A DNA stretch of 64,000 nucleotides from Eimeria praecox (Eukaryota), in contig OY986947.1 of the NCBI GenBank assembly GCA_963920595.1, positions 1,922,001 to 1,986,000 of the forward strand, read 5' to 3'. A program made the translations under genes and the position numbers. This document shows, one piece after another, positions 29,815 to 64,000 of this stretch (its first letter is position 1; every line of letters begins with the position of its first letter). The notes beneath the pieces are model-generated. The model did not search any database. It was given only the letters and a program-made list of their open reading frames with translations, and was not told the origin of the DNA.

Positions 29815-29886
29815 AGCACCGTAGCTCAGTGGGAGAGTGGGGGGCTCATAACCCCCAGGTCCATGGATCGAAACCATGCGGTGCTA
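29815..29886 (+). tRNA. Initiator tRNA-Met (CAT)
   Basis: AGCACCG...CGGTGCT-A acceptor stem with A1:U72; anticodon arm GGGGG-CTCATAA-CCCCC; T-loop ATCGAAA (A54/A60). These are eukaryotic initiator hallmarks; 72 nt. Confidence 0.97.
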
Positions 29887-39331: not shown

Positions 39332-40167
39332 CGGCTGTTCAGATGCTCCACGCTCTTGCGCCATATTAGGAATGCTTCGTGCCAGAATTGGCCCACATCA
39401 TCCCTTCTCTTATGGATCTATTCACGACGATCAGGCAACTACAGTCCAAGGGTCCCATCAGTCCTTCTAATTCGAGCACAAACTTCAGTTTATTTCATAA
39501 TAGGTGTAGCACCAGACACGGATGACGATAGCCTTTGGGGTCCCCTGAATATGCTTGGCAAAGAAGCCCGCATTAAAATCTCTTCGAGCTGTGTATCAGT
39601 GGGCGCCGTCAACATATTCATATTGATCAGGTCCAATATCGCAACAGACCCCTCGAAAGTACGATTTCGTACGCACACGATGCGCCTTGCACCCACTCTA
39701 AAGATCATCGACAGCACAGCACTGCTGCAGCAAAGCAGCCAGAGCACACATTAACACGAACACGTACATACACACAAAAGCATACACAAACACATACGTA
39801 CGCACACACACGCTTCCCTGGCTTTCCTAGATCCAACTAAAATTTACACAGCATTAGGCAGGCACAGACATGAATAGTTGAGCGATGCTTCGCGACATTA
39901 GTCCCTTTGCCACCCCCCAAGTGATATGTAAAGCACGTTCCATGCACGTGCATTCAGCCTTCTCCAAGTGCATGCCGCATGTGAACAGCCGAAGGCAGAT
40001 CCTTCTCGATACTGGCTGGCACCAAAGTTGCCCCAGAGATCGAGTGAAATGCAGCTTGGTGAGGTGGAGGCACTGGAGGCGAGCACAGCATTTCTGTGTG
40101 GGCATGCAGGATGCTGCTGCATTTGGGGTGTGCCGTCGACTTCCTAGCATGCTAAGGGGCATCCAAA

Positions 40168-40239
40168 AGGTCCTACTGGGATTTGAACCCAGGTCGGCGG
40201 ATTCAGAGTCCGCAGTGCTTACCACTACACCATAGAACC
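40168..40239 (-). tRNA. tRNA-Gln(CTG) copy 1
   Basis: Minus strand GGTTCTATGGTGTAGTGGTAAGCACTGCGGACTCTGAATCCGCCGACCTGGGTTCAAATCCCAGTAGGACCT. Full cloverleaf, A and B boxes, anticodon arm GCGGA-CTCTGAA-TCCGC, ends in TTTT. Confidence 0.97.
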
Positions 40240-41202
40240 GCGAGGTGACCCTCGCCATGCAGTAAAAGCATCGCAGCTCTCCTGCTAGAAAATCGAAGCC
40301 AAACAAGCGTCTTCTTCTTTCTCGTACCAAGCCCGAATTCTGCGCCAGACTCGCCTTGCGCTCTTTAGCTGGGCATGGCTCCTCCGCACCACCCTGCTCA
40401 CCCTAATGACGCTGGTTGTCTGCTTGCCTTTGGATTCCCCACCATGTTCGCATCTGGAAGCTGTTTTCAGTGGCTAAATTCCTGTACAACGCAGCTTCTG
40501 CCTTAGGATGTGAGAAGGATCGCAATCAACACCAATCAACAACAAGCTAGCGCTCTACGATTGGAGCATGCGGCGGGGTAGACTTGGCGTTGGTGGGGCC
40601 CATGTGGGTGTCTGTTGAGGGCCGCTTCTTGGCTTTTGCCAGGAGAGGTCCTAAGCTTTGGCGCTGTCAAACGCCTGTTCTTGCATAGCAAATAAGGCTG
40701 CACGAATAGGTTGGCGCCGCTTCGAGAGGTCCATTTCCTCAAATCTCTAGTTCGGACCCACCCTCACCGTCACAGATAGAGCGGTGGGATGGTGGTACAG
40801 CTGTCAGGCTAGGCGCATGCGCTTGCATTTGCGCCCCAACATGCAGCTCCTCATCCCACCAGTAAAGACGCCTGACCATTGGGCACTCGTAGGCATACAT
40901 AGCCATGCGTGATAGTGGCATGCTTCGCGACATTAGCCCCTCTGCCACCCCCCAAGTGATATGTAAAGCACGTTCCATGCACGTGCATTCAGCCTTCTCC
41001 AAGTGCATGCCGCATGTGAACAGCCGAAGGCAGATCCTTCTCGATACTGGCTGGCACCAAAGTTGCCCCAGAGATCGAGTGAAATGCAGCTTGGTGAGGT
41101 GGAGGCCCTGGAAGCGAGCACAGCATTTCTGTGTGGGCATGCAGGATGCTGCTGCATTTGGGGTGTGCCTTCGACTTCCTAGCATGCTAAGGGGCATCCA
41201 AA

Positions 41203-41274
41203 AGGTCCTACTGGGATTTGAACCCAGGTCGGCGGATTCAGAGTCCGCAGTGCTTACCACTACACCATAGAACC
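41203..41274 (-). tRNA. tRNA-Gln(CTG) copy 2
   Basis: Same 72-nt sequence as copy 1. Confidence 0.97.
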
Positions 41275-42237
41275 GCGAGGTGACCCTCGCCATGCAGTAA
41301 AAGCATCGCAGCTCTCCTGCTAGAAAATCGAAGCCAAACAAGCGTCTTCTTCTTTCTCGTACCAAGCCCGAATTCTGCGCCAGACTCGCCTTGCGCTCTT
41401 TAGCTGGGCATGGCTCCTCCGCACCACCCTGCTCACCCTAATGACGCTGGTTGTCTGCTTGCCTTTGGATTCCTCACCATGTTCGCATCTGGAAGCTGTT
41501 TTCAGTGGCTAAATTCCTGTACAACGCAGCTTCTGCCTTAGGATGTGAGAAGGATCGCAATCAACACCAATCAACAACAAGCCAGCGCTCTACGATTGGA
41601 GCATGCGGCGGGGTAGACTTGGCGTTGGTGGGGCTCATGTGGGTGTCTGTTGAGGGCCGCTTCTTGGCGTTTGCCAGGAGAGGTCCTAAGCTTTGGCGCT
41701 GTCAAACGGCTGTTCTTGCATAGCAAAAAAGGCTGCACGAATAGGTTGGCGCCGCTTCGAGAGGTCCATTTCCTCAAATCTCTAGTTCGGACCCACCCTC
41801 ACCGTCACAGATAGAGCGGTGGGATGGTGAAACAGCTGTCAGGCTGGGCGCATGCGCTTGCATTTGCGCCCCAACATGCAGCTCCTCATCTCACCAGTAA
41901 AGACGCCTGACCATTGAGCACGCGTACGCATACATAGCCATGCGTGATAGTGGCATGCTTCGCGGCATTAGTCCCTCTGCCACCCCCCAAGTGATATGTA
42001 AAGCACGTTCCATGCACGTGCATTCAGCCTTCTCCAAGTGCATGCCGCATGTGAACAGCCGAAGGCAGATCCTTCTCGATACTGGCTGGCACCAAAGTTG
42101 CCCCAGAGATCGAGTGAAATGCAGCTTGGAGAGGTGGAGGCGCTGGAAGCGAGCACAGCATTTCTGTGTGGGCATGCAGGATACTGCTGCATTTGGGGTG
42201 TGCCTTCGACTTCCTAGCATGCTAAGGGGCATCCAAA

Positions 42238-42309
42238 AGGTCCTACTGGGATTTGAACCCAGGTCGGCGGATTCAGAGTCCGCAGTGCTTACCACTACAC
42301 CATAGAACC
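42238..42309 (-). tRNA. tRNA-Gln(CTG) copy 3
   Basis: Same 72-nt sequence as copy 1. Confidence 0.97.
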
Positions 42310-43271
42310 GCGAGGTGACCCTCGCCATGCAGTAAAAGCATCGCAGCTCTCCTGCTAGAAAATCGAAGCCAAACAAGCGTCTTCTTCTTTCTCGTACCAA
42401 GCCCGAATTCTGCGCCAGACTCGCCTTGCGCTCTTTAGCTGGGCATGGCTCCTCCGCACCACCCTGCTCACCCTAATGACGCTGGTTGTCTGCTTGCCTT
42501 TGGATTCCCAACCATGTTCGCATCTGGAAGCTGTTTTCAGTGGCTAAATTCCTGTACAACGCAGCTTCTGCCTTAGGATGTGAGAAGGATCGCAATCAAC
42601 ACCAATCAACAACAAGCCAGCGCTCTACGGTTGGAGCATGCGGCGGAGTAGACTTGGCGTTGGTGGGGCTCATGTGGGTGTGTGCTGAGGGCCGCTTCTT
42701 GGCTTTTGCCAGGAGAGGTCCTAAGCTTTGGCGCTGTCAAACGCCTGTTCTTGCATAGCAAATAAGGCTGCACGAATAGGTTCGCGCCGCTTCGAGAGGT
42801 CCATTTCCTCAAATCTCTAGTTCGGACCCACCCTCACCGTCACAGATAGAGCGGTGGGATGGTGGTACAGCTGTCAGGCTAGGCGCATGCGCTTGCATTT
42901 GCGCCCCAACATGCAGCTCCTCATCTCACCAGTAAAGACGCCTGACCATTGAGCACTCGTAGGCATACATAGCCATGCGTGACACTGGCATGCTTCGCGG
43001 CTTTAGTCCGTCTCCACCCCCCAAGTGATATGTAAAGCACGTTCCATGCACGTGCATTCAGCCTTCTCCAAGTGCATGCCGCATGTGAACAGCCGAAGGC
43101 AGATCCTTCTCGATACTGGCTGGCACCAAAGTTGCCCCAGAGATCGAGTGAAATGCAGCTTGGTGAGGTGGAGGCACTGGAGGCGAGCACAGCATTTCTG
43201 TGTGGGCATGCAGGATGCTGCTGCATTTGGGGTGTGCCGTCGACTTCCTAGCATGCTAAGGGGCATCCAAA

Positions 43272-43343
43272 AGGTCCTACTGGGATTTGAACCCAGGTCG
43301 GCGGATTCAGAGTCCGCAGTGCTTACCACTACACCATAGAACC
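43272..43343 (-). tRNA. tRNA-Gln(CTG) copy 4
   Basis: Same 72-nt sequence as copy 1. Confidence 0.97.
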
Positions 43344-44305
43344 GCGAGGTGACCCTCGCCATGCAGTAAAAGCATCGCAGCTCTCCTGCTAGAAAATCGA
43401 AGCCAAACAAGCGTCTTCTTCTTTCTCGTACCAAGCCCGAATTCTGCGCCAGACTCGCCTTGCGCTCTTTAGCTGGGCATGGCTCCTCCGCACCACCCTG
43501 CTCACCCTAATGACGCTGGTTGTCTGCTTGCCTTTGGATTCCTCACCATGTTCGCATCTGGAAGCTGTTTTCAGTGGCTAAATTCCTGTACAACGCAGCT
43601 TCTGCCTTAGGATGTGAGAAGGATCGCAATCAACACCAATCAACAACAAGCCAGCGCTCTACGATTGGAGCATGCGGCGGAGTAGACTTGGCGTTGGTGG
43701 GGCTCATGTGGGTGTGTGCTGAGGGCCGCTTCTTGGCTTTTGCCAGGAGAGGTCCTAAGCTTTGGCGCTGTCAAACGCCTGTTCTTGCATAGCAAATAAG
43801 GCTGCACGAATAGGTTCGCGCCGCTTCGAGAGGTCCATTTCCTCAAATCTCTAGTTCGGACCCACCCTCACCGTCACAGATAGAGCGGTGGGATGGTGGT
43901 ACAGCTGTCAGGCTAGGCGCATGCGCTTGCATTTGCGCCCCAACATGCAGCTCCTCATCTCACCAGTAAAGACGCCTGACCATTGAGCACTCGTAGGCAT
44001 ACATAGCCATGCGTGACACTGGCATGCTTCGCGGCTTTAGTCCGTCTCCACCCCCCAAGTGATATGTAAAGCACGTTCCATGCACGTGCATTCAGCCTTC
44101 TCCAAGTGCATGCCGCATGTGAACAGCCGAAGGCAGATCCTTCTCGATACTGGCTGGCACCAAAGTTGCCCCAGAGATCGAGTGAAATGCAGCTTGGTGA
44201 GGTGGAGGCACTGGAGGCGAGCACAGCATTTCTGTGTGGGCATGCAGGATGCTGCTGCATTTGGGGTGTGCCGTCGACTTCCTAGCATGCTAAGGGGCAT
44301 CCAAA

Positions 44306-44377
44306 AGGTCCTACTGGGATTTGAACCCAGGTCGGCGGATTCAGAGTCCGCAGTGCTTACCACTACACCATAGAACC
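44306..44377 (-). tRNA. tRNA-Gln(CTG) copy 5
   Basis: Same 72-nt sequence as copy 1. Confidence 0.97.
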
Positions 44378-45339
44378 GCGAGGTGACCCTCGCCATGCAG
44401 TAAAAGCATCGCAGCTCTCCTGCTAGAAAATCGAAGCCAAACAAGCGTCTTCTTCTTTCTCGTACCAAGCCCGAATTCTGCGCCAGACTCGCCTTGCGCT
44501 CTTTAGCTGGGCATGGCTCCTCCGCACCACCCTGCTCACCCTAATGACGCTGGTTGTCTGCTTGCCTTTGGATTCCCAACCATTTTCGCATCTGGAAGCT
44601 GTTTTCAGTGGCTAAATTCCTGTACAACGCAGCTTCTGCCTTAGGATGTGAGAAGGATCGCAATCAACACCAATCAACAACAAGCCAGCGCTCTACGGTT
44701 GGAGCATGCGGCGGAGTAGACTTGGCGTTGGTGGGGCTCATGTGGGTGTGTGCTGAGGGCCGCTTCTTGGCTTTTGCCAGGAGAGGTCCTAAGCTTTGGC
44801 GCTGTCAAACGCCTGTTCTTGCATGGCAAATAAGGCTGCACGAATAGGTTGGCGCCGCTTCGAGAGGTCCATTTCCTCAAATCTCTAGTTCGGACCCACC
44901 CTCACCGTCACAGATAGAGCGGTGGGATGGTGGTACAGCTGTCAGGCTAGGCGCATGCGCTTGCATTTGCGCCCCAACATGCAGCTCCTCATCTCACCAG
45001 TAAAGACGCCTGACCACTGGGCACTCGTAGGCATACATAGCCATGCGTGATAGTGGCATGCTTCGCGGCATTAGTCCGTCTCCACCCCCCAAGTGATATG
45101 TAAAGCACGTTCCATGCACGTGCATTCAGCCTTCTCCAAGTGCATGCCGCATGCGAACAGCCGAAGGCAGATCCTTCTCGATACTGGCTGGCACCAAAGT
45201 TGCCCCAGAGATCGAGTGAAATGCAGCTTGGTGAGGTGGAGGCACTGGAGGCGAGCACAGCATTTCTGTGTGGGCATGCAGGATGCTGCTGCATTTGGGG
45301 TGTGCCTTCGACTTCCTAGCATGCTAAGGGGCATCCAAA

Positions 45340-45411
45340 AGGTCCTACTGGGATTTGAACCCAGGTCGGCGGATTCAGAGTCCGCAGTGCTTACCACTAC
45401 ACCATAGAACC
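45340..45411 (-). tRNA. tRNA-Gln(CTG) copy 6
   Basis: Same 72-nt sequence as copy 1. Confidence 0.97.
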
Positions 45412-46375
45412 GCGAGGTGACCCTCGCCATGCAGTAAAAGCATCGCAGCTCTCCTGCTAGAAAATCGAAGCCAAACAAGCGTCTTCTTCTTTCTCGTACC
45501 AAGCCCGAATTCTGCGCCAGACTCGCCTCTTGCGCTCTTTAGCTGGGCATGGCTCCTCCGCACCACCCTGCTCACCCTAATGACGCTGGTTGTCTGCTTG
45601 CCTTTGGATTCCCAACCATGTTCGCATCTGGAAGCTGTTTTCAGTGGCTAAATTCCTGTACAACGCAGCTTCTGCCTTAGGATGTGAGAAGGATCGCAAT
45701 CAACACCAATCAACAACAAGCCAGCGCTCTACGGTTGGAGCATGCGGCGGAGTAGACTTGGCGTTGGTGGGGCTCATGTGGGTGTGTGCTGAGGGCCGCT
45801 TCTTGGCTTTTGCCAGGAGAGGTCCTAAGCTTTGGCGCTGTCAAACGCCTGTTCTTGCATAGCAAATAAGGCTGCACGAATAGGTTGGCGCCGCTTCGAG
45901 AGGTCCATTTCCTCAAATCTCTAGTTCGGACCCACCCTCACCGTCACAGATAGAGCGGTGGGATGGTGGTACAGCTGTCAGGCTAGGCGCATGCGCTTGC
46001 ATTTGCGCCCCAACATGCAGCTCCTCATCTCACCAGTAAAGACGCCTGACCATTGAGCACTCGTAGGCATACATAGCCATGCGTGACACTGGCATGCTTC
46101 GCGGCTTTAGTCCGTCTCCACCCCCCAAGTGATATGTAAAGCACGTTCCATGCACGTGCATTCAGCCTTCTCCAAGTGCATGCCGCATGTGAACAGCCGA
46201 AGGCAGATCCTTCTCGATACTGGCTGGCACCAAAGTTGCCCCAGAGATCGAGTGAAATGCAGCTTGGTGAGGTGGAGGCACTGGAGGCGAGCACAGCATT
46301 TCTGTGTGGGCATGCAGGATGGTGCTGCATTTGGGGTGTGCCTTCGACTTCCTAGCATGCTAAGGGGCATCCAAA

Positions 46376-46447
46376 AGGTCCTACTGGGATTTGAACCCAG
46401 GTCGGCGGATTCAGAGTCCGCAGTGCTTACCACTACACCATAGAACC
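46376..46447 (-). tRNA. tRNA-Gln(CTG) copy 7
   Basis: Same 72-nt sequence as copy 1. Confidence 0.97.
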
Positions 46448-47410
46448 GCGAGGTGACCCTCGCCATGCAGTAAAAGCATCGCAGCTCTCCTGCTAGAAAA
46501 TCGAAGCCAAACAAGCGTCTTCTTCTTTCTCGTACCAAGCCCGAATTCTGCGCCAGACTCGCCTTGCGCTCTTTAGCTGGGCATGGCTCCTCCGCACCAC
46601 CCTGCTCACCCTAATGACGCTGGTTGTCTGCTTGCCTTTGGATTCCCCACCATGTTCGCATCTGGAAGCTGTTTTCAGTGGCTAAATTCCTGTACAACGC
46701 AGCTTCTGCCTTAGGATGTGAGAAGGATCGCAATCAACACCAATCAACAACAAGCTAGCGCTCTACGATTGGAGCATGCGGCGGAGTAGACTTGGCGTTG
46801 GTGGGGCTCATGTGGGTGTGTGCTGAGGGCCGCTTCTTGGCTTTTGCCAGGAGAGGTCCTAAGCTTTGACGCTGTCAAACGCCTGTTCTTGCATAGCAAA
46901 TAAGGCTGCACGAATAGGTTGGCGCCGCTTCGAGAGGTCCATTTCCTCAAATCTCTAGTTCGGACCCACCCTCACCGTCACAGATAGAGCGGTGGGATGG
47001 TGGTACAGCTGTCAGGCTGGGCGCATGCGCTTGCATTTGCGCCCCAACATGCAGCTCCTCACCCCACCAGAAAAGACGCCTGACCATTGGGCACTCGTAG
47101 GCATACATAGCCATGCGTGATAGTGGCATGCTTCGCGACATTAGTCCCTCTGCCACCCCCCAAGTGATATGTAAAGCACGTTCCATGCACGTGCATTCAG
47201 CCTTCTCCAAGTGCATGCCGCATGTGAACAGCCGAAGGCAGATCCTTCTCGATACTGGCTGGCACCAAAGTTGCCCCAGAGATCGAGTGAAATGCAGCTT
47301 GGTGAGGTGGAGGCCCTGGAGGCGAGCACAGCATTTCTGTGTGGGCATGCAGGATGCTGCTGCATTTGGGGTGTGCCTTCGACTTCCTAGCATGCTAAGG
47401 GGCATCCAAA

Positions 47411-47482
47411 AGGTCCTACTGGGATTTGAACCCAGGTCGGCGGATTCAGAGTCCGCAGTGCTTACCACTACACCATAGAACC
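47411..47482 (-). tRNA. tRNA-Gln(CTG) copy 8
   Basis: Same 72-nt sequence as copy 1. Confidence 0.97.
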
Positions 47483-48444
47483 GCGAGGTGACCCTCGCCA
47501 TGCAGTAAAAGCATCGCAGCTCTCCTGCTAGAAAATCGAAGCCAAACAAGCGTCTTCTTCTTTCTCGTACCAAGCCCGAATTCTGCGCCAGACTCGCCTT
47601 GCGCTCTTTAGCTGGGCATGGCTCCTCCGCACCACCCTGCTCACCCTAATGACGCTGGTTGTCTGCTTGCCTTTGGATTCCCAACCATGTTCGCATCTGG
47701 AAGCTGTTTTCAGTGGCTAAATTCCTGTACAACGCAGCTTCTGCCTTAGGATGTGAGAAGGATCGCAATCAACACCAATCAACAACAAGCCAGCGCTCTA
47801 CGGTTGGAGCATGCGGCGGAGTAGACTTGGCGTTGGTGGGGCTCATGTGGGTGTGTGCTGAGGGCCGCTTCTTGGCTTTTGCCAGGAGAGGTCCTAAGCT
47901 TTGGCGCTGTCAAACGCCTGTTCTTGCATGGCAAATAAGGCTGCACGAATAGGTTGGCGCCGCTTCGAGAGGTCCATTTCCTCAAATCTCTAGTTCGGAC
48001 CCACCCTCACCGTCACAGATAGAGCGGTGGGATGGTGGTACAGCTGTCAGGCTAGGCGCATGCGCTTGCATTTGCGCCCCAACATGCAGCTCCTCATCTC
48101 ACCAGTAAAGACGCCTGACCACTGGGCACTCGTAGGCATACATAGCCATGCGTGATAGTGGCATGCTTCGCGGCATTAGTCCGTCTCCACCCCCCAAGTG
48201 ATATGTAAAGCACGTTCCATGCACGTGCATTCAGCCTTCTCCAAGTGCATGCCGCATGCGAACAGCCGAAGGCAGATCCTTCTCGATACTGGCTGGCACC
48301 AAAGTTGCCCCAGAGATCGAGTGAAATGCAGCTTGGTGAGGTGGAGGCACTGGAGGCGAGCACAGCATTTCTGTGTGGGCATGCAGGATGCTGCTGCATT
48401 TGGGGTGTGCCGTCGACTTCCTAGCATGCTAAGGGGCATCCAAA

Positions 48445-48516
48445 AGGTCCTACTGGGATTTGAACCCAGGTCGGCGGATTCAGAGTCCGCAGTGCTTACC
48501 ACTACACCATAGAACC
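48445..48516 (-). tRNA. tRNA-Gln(CTG) copy 9
   Basis: Same 72-nt sequence as copy 1. Confidence 0.97.
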
Positions 48517-49480
48517 GCGAGGTGACCCTCGCCATGCAGTAAAAGCATCGCAGCTCTCCTGCTAGAAAATCGAAGCCAAACAAGCGTCTTCTTCTTTCTC
48601 GTACCAAGCCCGAATTCTGCGCCAGACTCGCCTCTTGCGCTCTTTAGCTGGGCATGGCTCCTCCGCACCACCCTGCTCACCCTAATGACGCTGGTTGTCT
48701 GCTTGCCTTTGGATTCCCAACCATGTTCGCATCTGGAAGCTGTTTTCAGTGGCTAAATTCCTGTACAACGCAGCTTCTGCCTTAGGATGTGAGAAGGATC
48801 GCAATCAACACCAATCAACAACAAGCCAGCGCTCTACGGTTGGAGCATGCGGCGGAGTAGACTTGGCGTTGGTGGGGCTCATGTGGGTGTGTGCTGAGGG
48901 CCGCTTCTTGGCTTTTGCCAGGAGAGGTCCTAAGCTTTGGCGCTGTCAAACGCCTGTTCTTGCATAGCAAATAAGGCTGCACGAATAGGTTGGCGCCGCT
49001 TCGAGAGGTCCATTTCCTCAAATCTCTAGTTCGGACCCACCCTCACCGTCACAGATAGAGCGGTGGGATGGTGGTACAGCTGTCAGGCTAGGCGCATGCG
49101 CTTGCATTTGCGCCCCAACATGCAGCTCCTCATCTCACCAGTAAAGACGCCTGACCATTGAGCACTCGTAGGCATACATAGCCATGCGTGACACTGGCAT
49201 GCTTCGCGGCTTTAGTCCGTCTCCACCCCCCAAGTGATATGTAAAGCACGTTCCATGCACGTGCATTCAGCCTTCTCCAAGTGCATGCCGCATGTGAACA
49301 GCCGAAGGCAGATCCTTCTCGATACTGGCTGGCACCAAAGTTGCCCCAGAGATCGAGTGAAATGCAGCTTGGTGAGGTGGAGGCACTGGAGGCGAGCACA
49401 GCATTTCTGTGTGGGCATGCAGGATGCTGCTGCATTTGGGGTGTGCCGTCGACTTCCTAGCATGCTAAGGGGCATCCAAA

Positions 49481-49552
49481 AGGTCCTACTGGGATTTGAA
49501 CCCAGGTCGGCGGATTCAGAGTCCGCAGTGCTTACCACTACACCATAGAACC
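49481..49552 (-). tRNA. tRNA-Gln(CTG) copy 10
   Basis: Same 72-nt sequence as copy 1. Confidence 0.97.
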
Positions 49553-50514
49553 GCGAGGTGACCCTCGCCATGCAGTAAAAGCATCGCAGCTCTCCTGCTA
49601 GAAAATCGAAGCCAAACAAGCGTCTTCTTCTTTCTCGTACCAAGCCCGAATTCTGCGCCAGACTCGCCTTGCGCTCTTTAGCTGGGCATGGCTCCTCCGC
49701 ACCACCCTGCTCACCCTAATGACGCTGGTTGTCTGCTTGCCTTTGGATTCCCAACCATGTTCGCATCTGGAAGCTGTTTTCAGTGGCTAAATTCCTGTGC
49801 AACGCAGCTTCTGCCTTAGGATGTGAGAAGGATCGCAATCAACACCAATCAACAACAAGCCAGCGCTCTACGATTGGAGCATGCGGCGGAGTAGACTTGG
49901 CGTTGGTGGGGCTCATGTGGGTGTGTGCTGAGGGCCGCTTCTTGGCTTTTGCCAGGAGAGGTCCTAAGCTTTGGCGCTGTCAAACGCCTGTTCTTGCATA
50001 GCAAATAAGGCTGCACGAATAGGTTGGCGCCGCTTCGAGAGGTCCATTTCCTCAAATCTCTAGTTCGGACCCACCCTCACCGTCACAGATAGAGCGGTGG
50101 GATGGTGGTACAGCTGTCAGGCTAGGCGCATGCGCTTGCATTTGCGCCCCAACATGCAGCTCCTCATCTCACCAGTAAAGACGCCTGACCATTGAGCACT
50201 CGTAGGCATACATAGCCATGCGTGACACTGGCATGCTTCGCGGCTTTAGTCCGTCTCCACCCCCCAAGTGATATGTAAAGCACGTTCCATGCACGTGCAT
50301 TCAGCCTTCTCCAAGTGCATGCCGCATGTGAACAGCCGAAGGCAGATCCTTCTCGATACTGGCTGGCACCAAAGTTGCCCCAGAGATCGAGTGAAATGCA
50401 GCTTGGTGAGGTGGAGGCACTGGAGGCGAGCACAGCATTTCTGTGTGGGCATGCAGGATGCTGCTGCATTTGGGGTGTGCCGTCGACTTCCTAGCATGCT
50501 AAGGGGCATCCAAA

Positions 50515-50586
50515 AGGTCCTACTGGGATTTGAACCCAGGTCGGCGGATTCAGAGTCCGCAGTGCTTACCACTACACCATAGAACC
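50515..50586 (-). tRNA. tRNA-Gln(CTG) copy 11
   Basis: Same 72-nt sequence as copy 1. Confidence 0.97.
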
Positions 50587-51548: not shown

Positions 51549-51620
51549 AGGTCCTACTGGGATTTGAACCCAGGTCGGCGGATTCAGAGTCCGCAGTGCT
51601 TACCACTACACCATAGAACC
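51549..51620 (-). tRNA. tRNA-Gln(CTG) copy 12
   Basis: Same 72-nt sequence as copy 1. Confidence 0.97.
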
Positions 51621-52582: not shown

Positions 52583-52654
52583 AGGTCCTACTGGGATTTG
52601 AACCCAGGTCGGCGGATTCAGAGTCCGCAGTGCTTACCACTACACCATAGAACC
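52583..52654 (-). tRNA. tRNA-Gln(CTG) copy 13
   Basis: Same 72-nt sequence as copy 1. Confidence 0.97.
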
Positions 52655-53616: not shown

Positions 53617-53688
53617 AGGTCCTACTGGGATTTGAACCCAGGTCGGCGGATTCAGAGTCCGCAGTGCTTACCACTACACCATAGAACC
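53617..53688 (-). tRNA. tRNA-Gln(CTG) copy 14
   Basis: Same 72-nt sequence as copy 1. Confidence 0.97.
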
Positions 53689-54650
53689 GCGAGGTGACCC
53701 TCGCCATGCAGTAAAAGCATCGCAGCTCTCCTGCTAGAAAATCGAAGCCAAACAAGCGTCTTCTTCTTTCTCGTACCAAGCCCGAATTCTGCGCCAGACT
53801 CGCCTTGCGCTCTTTAGCTGGGCATGGCTCCTCCGCACCACCCTGCTCACCCTAATGACGCTGGTTGTCTGCTTGCCTTTGGATTCCTCACCATGTTCGC
53901 ATCTGGAAGCTGTTTTCAGTGGCTAAATTCCTGTACAACGCAGCTTCTGCCTTAGGATGTGAGAAGGATCGCAATCAACACCAATCAACAACAAGCCAGC
54001 GCTCTACGATTGGAGCATGCGGCGGAGTAGACTTGGCGTTGGTGGAGCTCATGTGGGTGTGTGCTGAGGGCCGCTTCTTGGCTTTTGCCAGGAGAGGTCC
54101 TAAGCTTTGGCGCTGTCAAACGCCTGTTCTTGCATAGCAAATAAGGCTGCACGAATAGGTTGGCGCCGCTTCGAGAGGTCCATTTCCTCAAATCTCTAGT
54201 TCGGACCCACCCTCACCGTCACAGATAGAGCGGTGGGATGGTGGTACAGCTGTCAGGCTAGGCGCATGCGCTTGCATTTGCGCCCCAACATGCAGCTCCT
54301 CATCTCACCAGTAAAGACGCCTGACCACTGGGCACTCGTAGGCATACATAGCCATGCGTGATAGTGGCATGCTTCGCGGCTTTAGTCCGTCTCCACCCCC
54401 CAAGTGATATGTAAAGCACGTTCCATGCACGTGCATTCAGCCTTCTCCAAGTGCATGCCGCATGTGAACAGCCGAAGGCAGATCCTTCTCGATACTGGCT
54501 GGCACCAAATTTGCCCCAGAGATCGAGTGAAATGCAGCTTGGTGAGGTGGAGGCACTGGAGGCGAGCACAGCATTTCTGTGTGGGCATGCAGGATGCTGC
54601 AGCATTTGGGGTGTGCCTTCGACTTCCTAGCATGCTAAGGGGCATCCAAA

Positions 54651-54722
54651 AGGTCCTACTGGGGTTTGAACCCAGGTCGGCGGATTCAAAGTCCGCAGTG
54701 CTAGCCACTACACCATAGAACC
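54651..54722 (-). tRNA. tRNA-Gln(TTG) copy 15
   Basis: Minus strand GGTTCTATGGTGTAGTGGCTAGCACTGCGGACTTTGAATCCGCCGACCTGGGTTCAAACCCCAGTAGGACCT; anticodon loop CT-TTG-AA, D-loop GGCTAG, T-loop TTCAAAC. Confidence 0.97.
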
Positions 54723-55679
54723 GCAAGGTGACCCTCACCCTGCGCAAAAGCATCACAGCTCTCCTGCTACAAAAATCGACGTCAACCAAGCTTCTTATTG
54801 TCTCCCGCGGACAGCTCGAATTCTGCGCAAGGCTCATCTTGGGCTCCTTCGCTCGGCATGGCTCCTCCGCACCACCCTGCTCACCCTAATGACGCTGGTT
54901 GTCTGCTTGCCTTTGGCTTCCCCGCCATGTTCGCTTCCGGAAGCTCTTGAAAATGGCTAAATTCCTGTACAACGCGGGTTCTGCATTAGGATATAAGAAA
55001 GATCAGATTCAACACCAAGAAAAGCTAGCGCTCTACGATTGGAGCATGCGGCGGAGCAGACTTGGTGTTGGTGGGGCTCATGTGGGTGTGTGCTGAGGGC
55101 CGCTTCTTGGCTTTTGCCAGGAGAGGTCCTAAGCTTTGGCGCTGTCAAACGCCTGTTCTTGCATAGCAAATAAGGCTGCACGAATAGGTTGGCGCTGCTT
55201 CGAGAGGTCCATTTCCTCAAATCTCTAGTTCGGACCCACCATCACCGTCACAGATAGAGCGGTGGGATGGTGAAACAGCTGTCAGGCTGGGCGCATGCGC
55301 TTGCATTTGCGCCCCAACATGCAGCTCCTCATCTCACCAGTAAAGCCGCCTGACCATTGAGCACTTGTAGGCATACATAGCCATGCGTGAGAGTGGCATG
55401 CTTCGCGGCATTTGTCCGTCTCCACCCCCCAAGTGATATGTAAAGCACGTTCCATGCACGTGCATTCAGCCTTCTCCAAGTGCATGCCGCATGTGAACAG
55501 CCGAAGGCAGATCCTTCTCGATACTGGCTGGCACCAAAGTTGCCCCAGAGATCGAGTGAAATGCAGCTTGGTGAGGTGGAGGCACTGGAGGCGAGCACAG
55601 CATTTCTGTGTGGGCATGCAGGATGCTGCAGCATTTGGGGTGTGCCGTCGACTTCCTAGCATGCTAAGGGGCATCCAAA

Positions 55680-55751
55680 AGGTCCTACTGGGGTTTGAAC
55701 CCAGGTCGGCGGATTCAAAGTCCGCAGTGCTAGCCACTACACCATAGAACC
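55680..55751 (-). tRNA. tRNA-Gln(TTG) copy 16
   Basis: Same as copy 15. Confidence 0.97.
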
Positions 55752-56708
55752 GCAAGGTGACCCTCACCCTGCGCAAAAGCATCACAGCTCTCCTGCTACA
55801 AAAATCGACGTCAACCAAGCTTCTTATTGTCTCCCGCGGACAGCTCGAATTCTGAGCAAGGCTCATCTTGGGCTCCTTCGCTCGGCATGGCTCCTCCGCA
55901 CCACCCTGCTCACCCTAATGACGCTGGTTGTCTGCTTGCCTTTGGATTCCCCGCCACGTTCGCTTCCGGAAGCTCTTGAAAATGGCTAAATTCCTGTACA
56001 ACGCAGGTTCTGCATTAGGATATAAGAAAGATCAGATTCAACACCAAGAAAAGCTAGCGCTCTACGATTGGAGCATGCGGCGGAGCAGACTTGGTGTTGG
56101 TGGGGCTCATGTGGGTGTGTGCTGAGGGCCGCTTCTTGGCTTTTGCCAGGAGAGGTCCTAAGCTTTGGCGCTGTCAAACGCCTGTTCTTGCATAGCAAAT
56201 AAGGCTGCACGAATAGGTTCGCGCCGCTTCGAGAGGTCCATTTCCTCAAATCTCTAGTTCCGACACACCCTCACCGTCACAGATAGAGCGGTGGGATGGT
56301 GGTACAGCTGTCAGGCTAGGCGCATGCGCTTGCATTTGCGCCCCAACATGCAGCTCCTCATCTCACCAGTAAAGACGCCTGACCATTGAGCACTTGTAGG
56401 CATACATAGCCATGCGTGAGAGTGGCATGCTTCACGGCATTAGTCCGTCTCCACCCCCCAAGTGATATGTAAAGCACGTTCCATGCACGTGCATTCAGCC
56501 TTCTCCAAGTGCATGCCGCATGTGAACAGCCGAAGGCAGATCCTTCTCGATACTGGCTGGCACCAAAGTTGCCCCAGAGATCGAGTGAAATGCAGCTTGG
56601 TGAGGTGGAGGCACTGGAGGCGAGCACAGTATTTCTGTGTGGGCATGCAGGATGCTGCAACATTTGGGGTGTGCCGTCGACTTCCTAGCATGCTAAGGGG
56701 CATCCAAA

Positions 56709-56780
56709 AGGTCCTACTGGGGTTTGAACCCAGGTCGGCGGATTCAAAGTCCGCAGTGCTAGCCACTACACCATAGAACC
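56709..56780 (-). tRNA. tRNA-Gln(TTG) copy 17
   Basis: Same as copy 15. Confidence 0.97.
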
Positions 56781-57737
56781 GCGAGGTGACCCTCACCCTG
56801 CGCAAAAGCATCACAGCTCTCCTGCTACAAAAATCGACTTCAACCAAGCTTCTTATTGTCTCCCGCGGACAGCTCGAATTCTGAGCAAGGCTCATCTTGG
56901 GCTCCTTCGCTCGGCATGGCTCCTCCGCACCACCCTGCTCACCCGTTTGGTGTTGATTGTCTGCTTGCCTCTGGATTCCCCACCATGTTCGCTTCCGGAA
57001 GCTCTTGCAAAAGGCTAAATTCCTGTACAATGCAGATTCTGCATTAGGATATAAGAACGATCAGATTCAACACCAAGAAAAGCTAGCGCTCTACGATTGG
57101 AGCATGCGGCGGAGTAGACTTGGCGTTGGTGGGGCTCATGTGGGTGTGTGCTGAGGGCCGCTTCGTGGCTTTTGCCAGGAGAGGTCCTAAGCTTTGGCGC
57201 TGTCAAACGCCTGTTCTTGCATGGCAAATAAGGCTGCACGAATAGGTTGGCGCCGCTTCGAGAGGTCCACTTCCTCAAATCTCTAGTTCCGACACACCCT
57301 CACCGTCACAGATAGAGCGGTGGGATGGTGGTACAGCTGTCAGGCTAGGCGCATGCGCTTGCATTTGCGCCCCAACATGCAGCTCCTCATCTCACCAGTA
57401 AAGACGCCTGACCATTGAGCACTCGTACGCATACATAGCCATGCGTGATAGTGGCATGCTTCGCGGCATTTGTCCGTCTCCACCCCCCAAGTGATATGTA
57501 AAGCACGTTCCATGCACGTGCATTCAGCCTTCTCCAAGTGCATGCCGCATGTGAACAGCCGAAGGCAGATCCTTCTCGACACTGGCTGGCACCAAAGTTG
57601 CCCCAGAGATCGAGTGAAATGCAGCTTGGTGAGGTGGAGGCACTGGAGGCGAGCACAGCATTTCTGTGTGGGCATGCAGGATGCTGCAGCATTTGGGGTG
57701 TGCCGTCGACTTCCTAGCATGCTAAGGGGCATCCAAA

Positions 57738-57809
57738 AGGTCCTACTGGGGTTTGAACCCAGGTCGGCGGATTCAAAGTCCGCAGTGCTAGCCACTACAC
57801 CATAGAACC
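57738..57809 (-). tRNA. tRNA-Gln(TTG) copy 18
   Basis: Same as copy 15. Confidence 0.97.
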
Positions 57810-58766
57810 GCAAGGTGACCCTCACCCTGCGCAAAAGCATCACAGCTCTCCTGCTACAAAAATCGACGTCAACCAAGCTTCTTATTGTCTCCCGCGGACA
57901 GCTCGAATTCTGCGCAAGGCTCATCTTGGGCTCCTTCGCTCGGCATGGCTCCTCCGCACCACCCTGCTCACCCTAATGACGCTGGTTGTCTGCTTGCCTT
58001 TGGATTCCCCGCCACGTTCGCTTCCGGAAGCTCTTGAAAATGGCTAAATTCCTGTACAACGCAGGTTCTGCATTAGGATATAAGAAAGATCAGATTCAAC
58101 ACCAAGAAAAGCTAGCGCTCTACGATTGGAGCATGCGGCGGAGCAGACTTGGTGTTGGTGGGGCTCATGTGGGTGTGTGCTGAGGGCCGCTTCTTGGCTT
58201 TTGCCAGGAGAGGTCCTAAGCTTTGGCGCTGTCAAACGCCTGTTCTTGCATAGCAAATAAGGCTGCACGAATAGGTTGGCGCCGCTTCGAGAGGTCCATT
58301 TCCTCAAATCTCTAGTTCCGACACACCCTCACCGTCACAGATAGAGCGGTGGGATGGTGGTACAGCTGTCAGGCTAGGCGCATGCGCTTGCATTTGCGCC
58401 CCAACATGCAGCTCCTCATCTCACCAGTAAAGACGCCTGACCATTGAGCACTTGTAGGCATACATAGCCATGCGTGAGAGTGGCATGCTTCACGGCATTA
58501 GTCCGTCTCCACCCCCCAAGTGATATGTAAAGCACGTTCCATGCACGTGCATTCAGCCTTCTCCAAGTGCATGCCGCATGTGAACAGCCGAAGGCAGATC
58601 CTTCTCGATACTGGCTGGCACCAAAGTTGCCCCAGAGATCGAGTGAAATGCAGCTTGGTGAGGTGGAGGCACTGGAGGCGAGCACAGTATTTCTGTGTGG
58701 GCATGCAGGATGCTGCAACATTTGGGGTGTGCCGTCGACTTCCTAGCATGCTAAGGGGCATCCAAA

Positions 58767-58838
58767 AGGTCCTACTGGGGTTTGAACCCAGGTCGGCGGA
58801 TTCAAAGTCCGCAGTGCTAGCCACTACACCATAGAACC
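58767..58838 (-). tRNA. tRNA-Gln(TTG) copy 19
   Basis: Same as copy 15. Confidence 0.97.
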
Positions 58839-59795
58839 GCGAGGTGACCCTCACCCTGCGCAAAAGCATCACAGCTCTCCTGCTACAAAAATCGACTTCA
58901 ACCAAGCTTCTTATTGTCTCCCGCAGACAGCTCGAATTCTGAGCAAGGCTCATCTTGGGCTCCTTCGCTCGGCATGGCTCCTCCGCACCACCCTGCTCAC
59001 CCGTTTGGTGTTGATTGTCTGCTTGCCTCTGGATTCCCCACCATGTTCGCTTCCGGAAGCTCTTGCAAAAGGCTAAATTCCTGTACAATGCAGATTCTGC
59101 ATTAGGATATAAGAACGATCAGATTCAACACCAAGAAAAGCTAGCGCTCTACGATTGGAGCATGCGGCGGAGTAGACTTGGCGTTGGTGGGGCTCATGTG
59201 GGTGTGTGCTGAGGGCCGCTTCGTGGCTTTTGCCAGGACAGGTCCTAAGCTTTGGCGCTGTCAAACGCCTGTTCTTGCATGGCAAATAAGGCTGCACGAA
59301 TAGGTTGGCGCCGCTTCGAGAGGTCCACTTCCTCAAATCTCTAGTTCCGACACACCCTCACCGTCACAGATAGAGCGGTGGGATGGTGGTACAGCTGTCA
59401 GGCTAGGCGCATGCGCTTGCATTTGCGCCCCAACATGCAGCTCCTCATCTCACCAGTAAAGACGCCTGACCATTGAGCACTCGTACGCATACATAGCCAT
59501 GCGTGAGAGTGGCATGCTTCACGGCATTAGTCCGTCTCCACCCCCCAAGTGATATGTAAAGCACGTTCCATGCACGTGCATTCAGCCTTCTCCAAGTGCA
59601 TGCCGCATGTGAACAGCCGAAGGCAGATCCTTCTCGATACTGGCTGGCACCAAAGTTGCCCCAGAGATCGAGTGAAATGCAGCTTGGTGAGGTGGAGGCA
59701 CTGGAGGCGAGCACAGTATTTCTGTGTGGGCATGCAGGATGCTGCAACATTTGGGGTGTGCCGTCGACTTCCTAGCATGCTAAGGGGCATCCAAA

Positions 59796-59867
59796 AGGTC
59801 CTACTGGGGTTTGAACCCAGGTCGGCGGATTCAAAGTCCGCAGTGCTAGCCACTACACCATAGAACC
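59796..59867 (-). tRNA. tRNA-Gln(TTG) copy 20
   Basis: Same as copy 15. Confidence 0.97.
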
Positions 59868-60824
59868 GCGAGGTGACCCTCACCCTGCGCAAAAGCATCA
59901 CAGCTCTCCTGCTACAAAAATCGACTTCAACCAAGCTTCTTATTGTCTCCCGCAGACAGCTCGAATTCTGAGCAAGGCTCATCTTGGGCTCCTTCGCTCG
60001 GCATGGCTCCTCCGCACCACCCTGCTCACCCGTTTGGTGTTGATTGTCTGCTTGCCTCTGGATTCCCCACCATGTTCGCTTCCGGAAGCTCTTGCAAAAG
60101 GCTAAATTCCTGTACAATGCAGATTCTGCATTAGGATATAAGAACGATCAGATTCAACACCAAGAAAAGCTAGCGCTCTACGATTGGAGCATGCGGCGGA
60201 GTAGACTTGGCGTTGGTGGGGCTCATGTGGGTGTGTGCTGAGGGCCGCTTCGTGGCTTTTGCCAGGACAGGTCCTAAGCTTTGGCGCTGTCAAACGCCTG
60301 TTCTTGCATGGCAAATAAGGCTGCACGAATAGGTTGGCGCCGCTTCGAGAGGTCCACTTCCTCAAATCTCTAGTTCCGACACACCCTCACCGTCACAGAT
60401 AGAGCGGTGGGATGGTGGTACAGCTGTCAGGCTAGGCGCATGCGCTTGCATTTGCGCCCCAACATGCAGCTCCTCATCTCACCAGTAAAGACGCCTGACC
60501 ATTGAGCACTCGTACGCATACATAGCCATGCGTGATAGTGGCATGCTTCGCGGCATTTGTCCGTCTCCACCCCCCAAGTGATATGTAAAGCACGTTCCAT
60601 GCACGTGCATTCAGCCTTCTCCAAGTGCATGCCGCATGTGAACAGCCGAAGGCAGATCCTTCTCGACACTGGCTGGCACCAAAGTTGCCCCAGAGATCGA
60701 GTGAAATGCAGCTTGGTGAGGTGGAGGCACTGGAGGCGAGCACAGCATTTCTGTGTGGGCATGCAGGATGCTGCTGCATTTGGGGTGTGCCGTCGACTTC
60801 CTAGCATGCTAAGGGGCATCCAAA

Positions 60825-60896
60825 AGGTCCTACTGGGGTTTGAACCCAGGTCGGCGGATTCAAAGTCCGCAGTGCTAGCCACTACACCATAGAACC
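60825..60896 (-). tRNA. tRNA-Gln(TTG) copy 21
   Basis: Same as copy 15. Confidence 0.97.
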
Positions 60897-61853
60897 GCAA
60901 GGTGACCCTCACCCTGCGCAAAAGCATCACAGCTCTCCTGCTACAAAAATCGACGTCAACCAAGCTTCTTATTGTCTCCCGCGGACAGCTCGAATTCTGC
61001 GCAAGGCTCATCTTGGGCTCCTTCGCTCGGCATGGCTCCTCCGCACCACCCTGCTCACCCTAATGACGCTGGTTGTCTGCTTGCCTTTGGATTCCCCGCC
61101 ACGTTCGCTTCCGGAAGCTCTTGAAAATGGCTAAATTCCTGTACAACGCAGGTTCTGCATTAGGATATAAGAAAGATCAGATTCAACACCAAGAAAAGCT
61201 AGCGCTCTACGATTGGAGCATGCGGCGGAGCAGACTTGGTGTTGGTGGGGCTCATGTGGGTGTGTGCTGAGGGCCGCTTCTTGGCTTTTGCCAGGAGAGG
61301 TCCTAAGCTTTGGCGCTGTCAAACGCCTGTTCTTGCATAGCAAATAAGGCTGCACGAATAGGTTGGCGCCGCTTCGAGAGGTCCATTTCCTCAAATCTCT
61401 AGTTCCGACACACCCTCACCGTCACAGATAGAGCGGTGGGATGGTGGTACAGCTGTCAGGCTGGGCGCATGCGCTTGCATTTGCGCCCCAACATGCAGCT
61501 CCTCATCTCACCAGTAAAGACGCCTGACCATTGAGCACTCGTACGCATACATAGCCATGCGTGATAGTGGCATGCTTCGCGGCATTAGTCCGTCTCCACC
61601 CCCCAAGTGATATGTAAAGCACGTTCCATGCACGTGCATTCAGCCTTCTCCAAGTGCATGCCGCATGTGAACAGCCGAAGGCAGATCCTTCTCGATACTG
61701 GCTGGCACCAAAGTTGCCCCAGAGATCGAGTGAAATGCAGCTTGGTGAGGTGGAGGCACTGGAGGCGAGCACAGAATTTCTGTGTGGGCATGCAGGATGC
61801 TGCAACATTTGGGGTGTGCCGTCGACTTCCTAGCATGCTAAGGGGCATCCAAA

Positions 61854-61925
61854 AGGTCCTACTGGGGTTTGAACCCAGGTCGGCGGATTCAAAGTCCGCA
61901 GTGCTAGCCACTACACCATAGAACC
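61854..61925 (-). tRNA. tRNA-Gln(TTG) copy 22
   Basis: Same as copy 15. Confidence 0.97.
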
Positions 61926-62882
61926 GCAAGGTGACCCTCACCCTGCGCAAAAGCATCACAGCTCTCCTGCTACAAAAATCGACGTCAACCAAGCTTCTTA
62001 TTGTCTCCCGCGGACAGCTCGAATTCTGCGCAAGGCTCATCTTGGGCTCCTTCGCTCGGCATGGCTCCTCCGCACCACCTTGCTCACCCGTTTGGTGTTG
62101 ATTGTCTGCTTGCCTCTGGATTCCCCACCATGTTCGCTTCCGGAAGCTCTTGAAAATGGCTAAATTCCTGTACAACGCAGGTTCTGCATTAGGATATAAG
62201 AAAGATCAGATTCAACACCAAGAAAAGCTAGCGCTCTACGATTGGAGCATGCGGCGGAGCAGACTTGGTGTTGGTGGGGCTCATGTGGGTGTGTGCTGAG
62301 GGCCGCTTCTTGGCTTTTGCCAGGAGAGGTCCTAAGCTTTGGCGCTGTCAAACGCCTGTTCTTGCATAGCAAATAAGGCTGCACGAATAGGTTGGCGCTG
62401 CTTCGAGAGGTCCATTTCCTCAAATCTCTAGTTCGGACCCACCCTCATCGTCACAGATAGAGCGGTGGGATGGTGGTACAGCTGTCAGGCTAGGCGCATG
62501 CGCTTGCATTTGCGCCCCAACATGCAGCTCCTCATCTCACCAGTAAAGACGCCTGACCACTGTGCACTCTTACGCATACATAGCCATGCGTGAGAGTGGC
62601 ATGCTTCGCGGCATTAGTCCGTCTCCACCCCCCAAGTGATATGTAAAGCACGTTCCATGCACGTGCATTCAGCCTTCTCCAAGTGCATGCCGCATGTGAA
62701 CAGCCGAAGGCAGATCCTTCTCGATACTGGCTGGCACCAAAGTTGCCCCAGAGATCGAGTGAAATGCAGCTTGGTGAGGTGGAGGCCCTGGAGGCGAGCA
62801 CAGCATTTCTGTGTGGGCATGCAGGATGCTGCTGCATTTGGGGTGTGCCTTCGACTTCCTAGCATGCTAAGGGGCATCCAAA

Positions 62883-62954
62883 AGGTCCTACTGGGATTTG
62901 AACCCAGGTCGGCGGATTCAGAGTCCGCAGTGCTTACCACTACACCATAGAACC
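62883..62954 (-). tRNA. tRNA-Gln(CTG) copy 23
   Basis: Same as copy 1; the array reverts to the CTG type. Confidence 0.97.
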
Positions 62955-63916
62955 GCGAGGTGACCCTCGCCATGCAGTAAAAGCATCGCAGCTCTCCTGC
63001 TAGAAAATCGAAGCCAAACAAGCGTCTTCTTCTTTCTCGTACCAAGCCCGAATTCTGCGCCAGACTCGCCTTGCGCTCTTTAGCTGGGCATGGCTCCTCC
63101 GCACCACCCTGCTCACCCTAATGACGCTGGTTGTCTGCTTGCCTTTGCATTCCTCACCATGTTCGCATCTGGAAGCTGTTTTCAGTGGCTAAATTCCTGT
63201 GCAACGCAGCTTCTGCCTTAGGATGTGAGAAGGATCGCAATCAACACCAATCAACAACAAGCCAGCGCTCTACGATTGGAGCATGCGGCGGAGCAGACTT
63301 GGTGTTGGTGGGGCTCATGTGGGTGTGTGCTGAGGGCCGCTTCGTGGCGCTTGCCAGGAGAGGTCCTAAGCTTTGACTCTGTCAAACGCCTGTTCTTGCA
63401 TAGCAAATAAGGCTGCACGAATAGGTTGGCGCTGCTTCGAGAGGTCCATTTCCTCAAATCTCTAGTTCCGACACACCCTCATCGTCACAGAGAGAGCGGT
63501 GGGATGGTGGTACAGCTGTCAGGCTGGGCGCATGTGCTTGCATTTGCGCCCCAACATGCAGCTCCTCATCTCACCAGTAAAGACGCCTGACCATTGAGCA
63601 CTTGTAGGCATACATAGCCATGCGTGAGAGTGGCATGCTTCGCGGCATTAGTCCGTCTCCACCCCCCAAGTGATATGTAAAGCACGTTCCATGCACGTGC
63701 ATTCAGCCTTCTCCAAGTGCATGCCGCATGTGAACAGCCGAAGGCAGATCCTTCTCGACACTGGCTGGCACCAAAGTTGCCCCAGAGATCGAGTGAAATG
63801 CAGCTTGGTGAGGTGGAGGCACTGGAGGCGAGCACAGCATTTCTGTGTGGGCATGCAGGATGCTGCTGCATTTGGGGTGTGCCGTCGACTTCCTAGCATG
63901 CTAAGGGGCATCCAAA

Positions 63917-63988
63917 AGGTCCTACTGGGATTTGAACCCAGGTCGGCGGATTCAGAGTCCGCAGTGCTTACCACTACACCATAGAACC
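63917..63988 (-). tRNA. tRNA-Gln(CTG) copy 24
   Basis: Same as copy 1; the immediate flank has the 'cgcaagg' allele otherwise seen in TTG units. Confidence 0.97.
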
Positions 63989-64000
63989 GCAAGGTGACCC

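What the first reader, a model, noticed from the sequence alone, without database searches (positions are those of the whole stretch)
39855..64000. Amplified tandem tRNA-Gln gene array (at least 24 copies): possible tRNA supply system for a poly-glutamine-laden proteome
Seen: at least 24 head-to-tail ~1.03-kb units, each with one intact 72-nt tRNA-Gln gene. By eye the tRNA bodies are invariant within each type while spacers carry many SNPs and indels, suggesting purifying selection on the tRNA. The array runs off the window. The genes at 1-29 kb encode long Gln runs of CAG punctuated by CAA. Known: apicomplexans such as Plasmodium have near-minimal tRNA gene sets, Eimeria proteins are rich in CAG-derived homopolymers, and tRNA gene copy number generally tracks codon demand. 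Inference: the array is an rDNA-like, copy-number-tunable tRNA-Gln supply that co-evolved with the CAG expansion to prevent ribosome stalling or frameshifting on poly-Q. I cannot confirm whether this has been described before.
Basis: partly seen in the sequence, partly recalled or inferred. Interest (0 to 1): 0.88.

Follow-up and report, generated by a model that had tools for sequence, protein, structure and literature searches.

The report
Tandem glutamine tRNA array in Eimeria
The chicken gut parasite Eimeria praecox carries at least 24 (likely 30-40) head-to-tail copies of its two glutamine tRNA genes in one place; this kind of array is known from other eukaryotes and likely helps meet the parasite's heavy glutamine use, but a special link to its poly-glutamine repeats is untested.

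Summary
The array is real. It holds 24 intact tRNA-Gln genes on the minus strand in 1,029-1,036-bp units: 14 CTG, 8 TTG, then 2 CTG. The genome is Eimeria praecox. Contig depth in two public runs from two studies points to roughly 27-38 copies, with CTG and TTG about equal. tRNA bodies are identical within each type, and the four differences between types all lie in loops, consistent with purifying selection. Units exchange spacer sequence freely, except for a ~360-bp block (tRNA plus ~305 bp of 5' flank) that holds all 54 fixed differences between the two anticodon types. The poly-Q co-evolution idea is untested and weakened: local codon use is about 4:1 CAG:CAA against about 1:1 gene copies; E. 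tenella has 345 tRNA genes overall; poly-Ala is as common as poly-Gln; Phytophthora has Gln-CTG/TTG arrays (PMC9584435); Plasmodium runs poly-Asn on one tRNA gene (PMC10813123). Verdict: new member of a known kind, not found described for Eimeria in ten searches. The scan's own notes held no earlier report of it on other DNA.

The parts
39855..64000 (-). Tandem array of ~1.03-kb units, one tRNA-Gln gene per unit; runs off the right end of the window
40168..53688 (-). Copies 1-14: tRNA-Gln(CTG), identical 72-nt genes, units of 1,034-1,036 bp
54651..61925 (-). Copies 15-22: tRNA-Gln(TTG), identical 72-nt genes, units of 1,029 bp; two sub-haplotypes of the 5' flank
62883..63988 (-). Copies 23-24: tRNA-Gln(CTG)
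53630..53992 (-). Example (CTG copy 14) of the type-specific block: T-loop through ~305 bp of 5' flank; holds all 54 fixed CTG/TTG differences
55693..56050 (-). Example (TTG copy 16) of the same type-specific block; its upstream part is 17.5% divergent from the CTG version
36670..36743 (-). Decayed tRNA-Gln relic 3.1 kb left of the array, same strand: 9-nt D-arm deletion, changed anticodon, broken T arm; not called by ARAGORN or Rfam
   Evidence: (score 76 vs shuffled maximum 41 in 100)

Best explanation
This is a tandem array of the two glutamine tRNA genes of Eimeria praecox, likely expanded and kept uniform by unequal crossing-over and gene conversion, with selection likely preserving both anticodon types, and with a copy number that probably follows the ordinary loose match between tRNA gene number and amino-acid demand in a glutamine-rich proteome. 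Shown: unit structure, two unit types, intact cloverleaves (21 of 21 stem pairs), shared polymorphisms in the spacer, a type-locked block around the tRNA and its 5' flank, and elevated depth. Inferred: Pol III transcription from internal A and B boxes with termination at a TTTT run at the 3' end; recombination as the source of the mosaic spacers; a single locus of about 30-40 copies; demand as a contributor to copy number.
For: 24 intact genes. Outside the block, divergence between types (2.5-2.7%) is about that within types (1.6-2.2%), with 18 shared polymorphisms and 0 fixed differences; 179 of 378 informative site pairs among CTG units show all four haplotypes. A tree of the block splits CTG from TTG with support 1.0, while a tree of the rest places CTG copy 23 among TTG copies. 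tRNA bodies differ at 4 of 72 sites where flank divergence predicts 12.6 (P 0.003), and 4 of 4 are unpaired (P 0.027). A copy outside the array has decayed. Depth ratios: X3 shared spacer 30x, CTG block 14x, TTG block 12x, tRNA bodies 19x + 19x; X2 CTG block 16x, bodies 17x + 21x. About 15-20 genes per Gln anticodon is roughly 2-3 times the mean of 7.5 per anticodon got by dividing E. tenella's 345 genes by 46, a modest excess. The same organisation is published for Phytophthora infestans, including Gln-CTG with Gln-TTG, and an E. tenella tRNA cluster is mentioned.
Against: No expression data were obtained. Per-anticodon counts for any Eimeria were not available, so proportionality to demand is not measured. 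Contig depth is a rough proxy that the tool itself warns is no copy number. The anticodon mix (about 1:1 by depth, 2:1 in the window) does not match local codon use (about 4:1). The one tRNA-Met gene in the window stands alone, so arrays are not the rule for every tRNA here. The one-sided shape of the type-specific block is not explained by simple linkage to the anticodon.
Confidence: 0.6

Rival explanations
1. Dedicated poly-Q supply: the array was selected specifically as CAG-derived poly-glutamine spread through the Eimeria proteome, to prevent local depletion of charged tRNA-Gln, stalling and frameshifting.
For: Homopolymer repeats occur in 57% of E. tenella genes, mostly Ala or Gln, and are translated (PMC4199364; 75 Ala, 64 Gln, 8 Ser among 147 peptide repeats). 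In six window frames 32 of 62 runs of 7 or more residues are Gln. Gln gene number seems above the per-anticodon average. Frameshifting on expanded CAG when tRNA-Gln(CUG) is depleted is recalled from huntingtin work; that paper was not held.
Against: CAA-reading genes are about as many as CAG-reading genes though CAG is 325 of 381 codons inside Gln runs. Plasmodium keeps poly-Asn proteomes on a single tRNA-Asn gene (PMC10813123). In P. infestans gene copy and codon frequency correlate only modestly (R 0.41) and the most expanded families read rare codons. Tandem tRNA-Gln units occur in L001 and L002, which have no CAG runs.
Confidence: 0.22
2. Copy number is mostly drift of a recombination-prone tandem repeat, or the array serves a chromatin or boundary role; a few copies would be enough for translation.
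For: tRNA arrays vary widely among related species with unclear function (Entamoeba; oomycetes). The human 1q23.3 tRNA repeat has 9-43 units per allele and is proposed as a boundary element (abstract). The anticodon mix does not match local codon use.
Against: 0 of 24 copies in the array carry a tRNA mutation relative to their type while spacers vary, and both anticodon types persist, although homogenisation alone could produce part of this.
Confidence: 0.15
3. Assembly artefact that expands a few genes into an array.
For: The window has one N gap elsewhere (4335-4534); no laid contig spans the array.
Against: No two of 23 units are identical and they form recombining haplotypes. Depth over the array is tens of times single-copy depth in three runs from two studies, and many of the unit variants appear in them.
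Confidence: 0.03

Closest known systems
Phytophthora infestans tandem tRNA gene arrays (PMC9584435; section read)
   Same: Head-to-tail units of 0.5-0.9 kb, near-identical copies, one locus per family for most, variants grouped in blocks, Gln-CTG and Gln-TTG in the same array, copy number confirmed by depth.
   Different: There the two Gln genes form a dimeric unit and the genome has over 7,000 tRNA genes; here each unit has one gene and the two types sit in runs (14, 8, 2+) with a shared spacer and a type-locked 5' block.
Entamoeba tRNA gene arrays (PMC2652664; abstract and first part of Discussion)
   Same: Tandem tRNA units in a protist parasite, homogenised by concerted evolution, function unclear.
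   Different: Entamoeba arrays hold nearly all tRNA genes, up to 5 per unit, with short tandem repeats between them and hundreds to thousands of genes; no internal tandem repeat was found in these units.
Human 1q23.3 tRNA variable-number tandem repeat (PMC4041453; abstract only)
   Same: Copy-number range of tens of units; tRNA genes conserved, spacer not.
   Different: 7.3-kb unit with several tRNA genes and a CTCF site.
E. tenella chromosome 6 tRNA cluster (one sentence in PMC9131526)
   Same: Clustered tRNA genes in the same genus.
   Different: Isotype and size not stated in the passage; it has TGTTGC repeats between genes, which Tandem Repeats Finder did not find here.

Membership tests
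Cytosolic tRNA-Gln genes (Rfam RF00005) | Cloverleaf above the gathering score, Gln anticodon, intact stems | tested here: met
   24 of 24 score 63.6-66.4 bits vs cut-off 29; 21 of 21 stem pairs standard in both types
Cytosolic tRNA-Gln genes (Rfam RF00005) | Transcribed by Pol III and charged | not testable with these tools
   No RNA holder of the stretch was listed; only contigs could be laid
Eukaryotic tandem tRNA gene arrays under concerted evolution | Head-to-tail, same-strand units of near-constant length | tested here: met
Eukaryotic tandem tRNA gene arrays under concerted evolution | Sequence exchange among units | tested here: met
   18 shared polymorphisms, four-haplotype site pairs, discordant trees
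Eukaryotic tandem tRNA gene arrays under concerted evolution | Multi-copy in independent sequence data | tested here: met
   (contig depth, rough; one of the studies may be the window's own source)
Eukaryotic tandem tRNA gene arrays under concerted evolution | Copy number varies between isolates | tested here: inconclusive
   X2 and X3 give overlapping ranges; contig depth is too coarse
Entamoeba-type arrays | Short tandem repeats between genes; nearly all tRNA genes arrayed | tested here: not met
   0 tandem repeats in 36000-64000; lone tRNA-Met at 29815
Dedicated poly-Q tRNA supply (proposed) | Anticodon mix follows CAG over CAA demand | tested here: not met
   about 1:1 by depth, 16:8 in the window, vs 618:151 codons in six uncurated frames; wobble and expression levels unknown
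Dedicated poly-Q tRNA supply (proposed) | Only Gln/Ala/Ser tRNAs amplified; copy number tracks poly-Q load across species | not testable with these tools
   no genome held; no per-anticodon table seen in the papers read
tRNA-derived SINE or satellite | Degenerate tRNA head, dispersed or decaying copies | tested here: not met
   0 of 24 array copies degenerate; one relic outside the array

The most novel reading that the evidence does not exclude
Eimeria answered its genome-wide CAG expansion by amplifying tRNA-Gln into a tunable array in which the two anticodon types are separate regulatory modules: each is locked to its own ~305-bp upstream block while the rest of the unit recombines freely, so the parasite can set CAG- and CAA-reading tRNA supply independently through copy number and promoter. 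This would be the opposite solution to Plasmodium, which runs poly-Asn on one tRNA gene.
Probability: 0.2. Interest if true: 0.62.

Novelty: new member of a known kind. Interest (0 to 1): 0.33.

Why it matters
If ordinary, it shows that Eimeria tRNA gene counts from short-read assemblies are collapsed (E. falciformis: 151 genes, no contig with more than 10) and gives a compact natural example of two isoacceptor genes kept distinct inside one homogenising array; it may also serve as a multi-copy species marker. If the poly-Q link held, Eimeria would be a natural test of how a proteome tolerates thousands of CAG-coded tracts, with a countable genetic variable, and a direct contrast to Plasmodium.

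Tried and rejected
No whole genome is held, so other isotypes could not be counted. No RNA holder was listed; one contig of run X4 (RNA only by guess) lies on the array with 42 differences, which says nothing on expression. No second RNA family in the spacer: only tRNA at gathering level, and weak matches overlapping the tRNA at E up to 5. A 182-232-codon stop-to-stop frame crosses the tRNA in CTG units; the upstream ATG seen in CTG flanks is absent from TTG flanks, so it was set aside as chance; my frame check was off by one base and is not used. Tandem Repeats Finder gave 0 rows because its period limit is 500. A suspected retrotransposon relic at 37-39.8 kb: 0 of 6 frames hit Pfam. The tRNA motif found 0 viral contigs and 2 metagenome contigs, neither sharing the spacer. 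Distance between units predicts divergence weakly or not at all (CTG 1-14 rho 0.23, P 0.025; without copy 1 P 0.14; TTG none). Run X1 was left out of the ratio estimate because it is broken into many short overlapping contigs. Four look-ups in the scan's notes gave nothing relevant. The Sarcocystis 'tRNA cluster' is apicoplast; PMC11912684 and PMC2888827 gave no Eimeria tRNA gene data in the passages found.
Full report
Observation. ARAGORN finds 25 tRNA genes in the window: one tRNA-Met at 29815 and 24 tRNA-Gln on the minus strand from 40168 to 63988. Rfam agrees, with 63.6-66.4 bits against a cut-off of 29. The order is 14 CTG, 8 TTG, 2 CTG. The 23 complete units are 1,034-1,036 bp (CTG) or 1,029 bp (TTG) and no two are identical. 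Homology to the unit begins at 39855. An exon of a gene 7 kb to the left is 100% identical to an Eimeria praecox protein and 73-75% to the next relatives over the full exon, which identifies the organism. No whole genome is held.

Is it an artefact? Contigs of public runs laid on 30000-42000 show depth rising from about 50 to over 1,000 (X3), about 520 to over 20,000 (X2) and about 1,500 to over 100,000 (X1) at the array border. Taking single contigs against single-copy contigs of the same run: in X3 the shared spacer is 30x, the CTG upstream block 14x, the TTG block 12x and the tRNA bodies 19x and 19x; in X2 the CTG block is 16x and the bodies 17x (CTG) and 21x (TTG). The tool warns that contig depth is no copy number, and one of the two studies may be the source of the window, so 27-38 copies is a rough range. 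A single-copy contig in X3 joins the unit at a diverged end and is likely the far border. The array is therefore likely one locus of 30-40 kb of which the window shows most.

Selection on the tRNA. Each type is invariant (16 of 16, 8 of 8). Within types, 105 of 1,039 columns vary, none in the 72 tRNA columns, where 7.8 would be expected (naive P 0.0003). This overstates the case because variation is patchy: 36 of 967 windows of 72 columns are invariant, though the longest invariant run (106 columns) covers the tRNA. Between types the tRNAs differ at 4 of 72 sites where the 17.5% flank divergence predicts 12.6 (P 0.003); all four are unpaired (P 0.027) and 21 of 21 stem pairs hold in both. A same-strand relic at 36670-36743 has lost 9 bases of the D arm and its anticodon, showing what happens to a copy outside the array.

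All 54 fixed differences between CTG and TTG units lie in one block, from the T loop to about 305 bp upstream of the gene. All 18 polymorphisms shared by the two types lie outside it. Outside the block, between-type divergence is 2.5-2.7% against 1.6-2.2% within types; inside the upstream part it is 17.5%. A tree of the block separates the types with support 1.0; a tree of the rest puts CTG copy 23 among TTG copies. So two old paralogous genes now share a freely exchanged spacer while their 5' blocks stay apart. Selection to keep both anticodons, plus the barrier that divergence itself sets to conversion, likely explains a protected block (inference). Its one-sidedness could be an accident of origin or could mark type-specific upstream control; within-type diversity in the block is low for CTG (0.6%) but high for TTG (3.7%), so constraint is not uniform.

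Mechanism. Most likely these are ordinary Pol III genes with internal A and B boxes (motifs recalled, visible in the sequence) ending at a TTTT run, amplified and homogenised by unequal crossing-over and conversion; 179 of 378 informative site pairs among CTG units show all four haplotypes. Expression was not observed. No other RNA family lies in the spacer.

The poly-Q idea. For it: homopolymer repeats are in 57% of E. tenella genes and are translated (PMC4199364, passages; supplement passage with 75 Ala, 64 Gln and 8 Ser peptide repeats, where one supplementary file could not be searched). Six long frames chosen by eye from 58 ORFs in the window, not curated exons and two of them overlapping, are 14.5% Gln, with 32 of 62 runs being Gln. 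About 15-20 genes per Gln anticodon is 2-3 times the 7.5 got by dividing E. tenella's 345 tRNA genes (PMC8515493, one passage) by 46 anticodons (number from E. falciformis, PMC4287421, passages); this crosses species and is only a guide. Against it: CAG outnumbers CAA 618:151, and 325:56 inside Gln runs, yet the two gene types are about equal by depth; wobble reading and unequal expression could soften this. Coccidia are not tRNA-minimal (174 in Toxoplasma, 144 in Cyclospora; PMC4851813, passages). Plasmodium keeps Asn-rich proteomes on one tRNA-Asn gene, and among other apicomplexans tRNA gene number follows proteome size (PMC10813123, part of the text and passages; its per-anticodon table is a figure I could not see, and Eimeria is not mentioned). 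Two unrelated metagenome contigs look like tandem tRNA-Gln units without any CAG run. The test on Ala, Ser and other isotypes could not be run.

Comparison with what is known. Tandem tRNA arrays are published for Phytophthora infestans, where 64% of genes are in single-gene arrays, Gln-CTG and Gln-TTG share an array, and copy number correlates only modestly with codon use (PMC9584435, section 9); for Entamoeba (PMC2652664, abstract and part of the Discussion); and for human 1q23.3 (PMC4041453, abstract). For Eimeria I found only a one-sentence mention of a tRNA cluster on E. tenella chromosome 6 (PMC9131526, passages and supplement search). Ten searches of the held library returned no paper describing an Eimeria tRNA-Gln array or linking it to poly-Q; subscription papers and database annotations are not covered, and the genes are probably already annotated in public assemblies.

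Verdict. A real, likely functional tandem tRNA-Gln array, a new member of a known kind. Best explanation 0.6, dedicated poly-Q supply 0.22, drift or structural role 0.15, artefact 0.03. Interest 0.33, carried by the type-locked 5' block and by how directly the poly-Q question can now be tested.

Noticed in passing
window 29815-29886 (+): Lone tRNA-Met(CAT) with initiator-type features (A1-U72, three G-C pairs in the anticodon stem; features recalled), followed by a T6 run; it sits close to where the CAG-rich band ends and the repeat-poor segment begins.
   Followed up: partly
window 32753-36445 (+): Spliced gene for a PP1 regulatory subunit (SDS22-like, leucine-rich repeats); nine GT..AG joints shown in RNA-like contigs of X4; one exon is 100% identical to an E. 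praecox protein.
   Followed up: partly
window 36670-36743 (-): Decayed tRNA-Gln copy 3.1 kb outside the array, downstream of the SDS22-like gene.
   Followed up: yes
run X3 record 15, matching window 54955-55031: A 3,935-base contig at single-copy depth (49.7) ends in 77 bases that match the unit with 11 differences, at about the upstream edge of the type-specific block; likely the far border of the array, or a diverged fragment elsewhere.
   Followed up: partly
L001 1-135 / 2149-2283; L002 1-27 / 1295-1321: Two metagenome contigs of unnamed organisms each look like one collapsed unit of a tandem tRNA-Gln array (periods about 2.15 kb and 1.29 kb), sharing only the tRNA with this window.
   Followed up: partly
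3' end of every array tRNA: The only nearby T run is TTTT including the tRNA's last base; the next run of four or more T lies 650-900 bases on. A short terminator could allow read-through.
   Followed up: no
window 19027-20637 (-): RCC1-repeat protein frame interrupted by Gln, Ala and Ser runs.
   Followed up: no
window 22609-29004 (-): 2,131-codon open frame rich in Gln, Ala and Ser runs with no Pfam hit.
   Followed up: no
window 39750-39812; 4920-4960; 4335-4534: CA-rich microsatellite just left of the array border; internal telomere-like AAACCCT repeats; a 200-base N gap.
   Followed up: no
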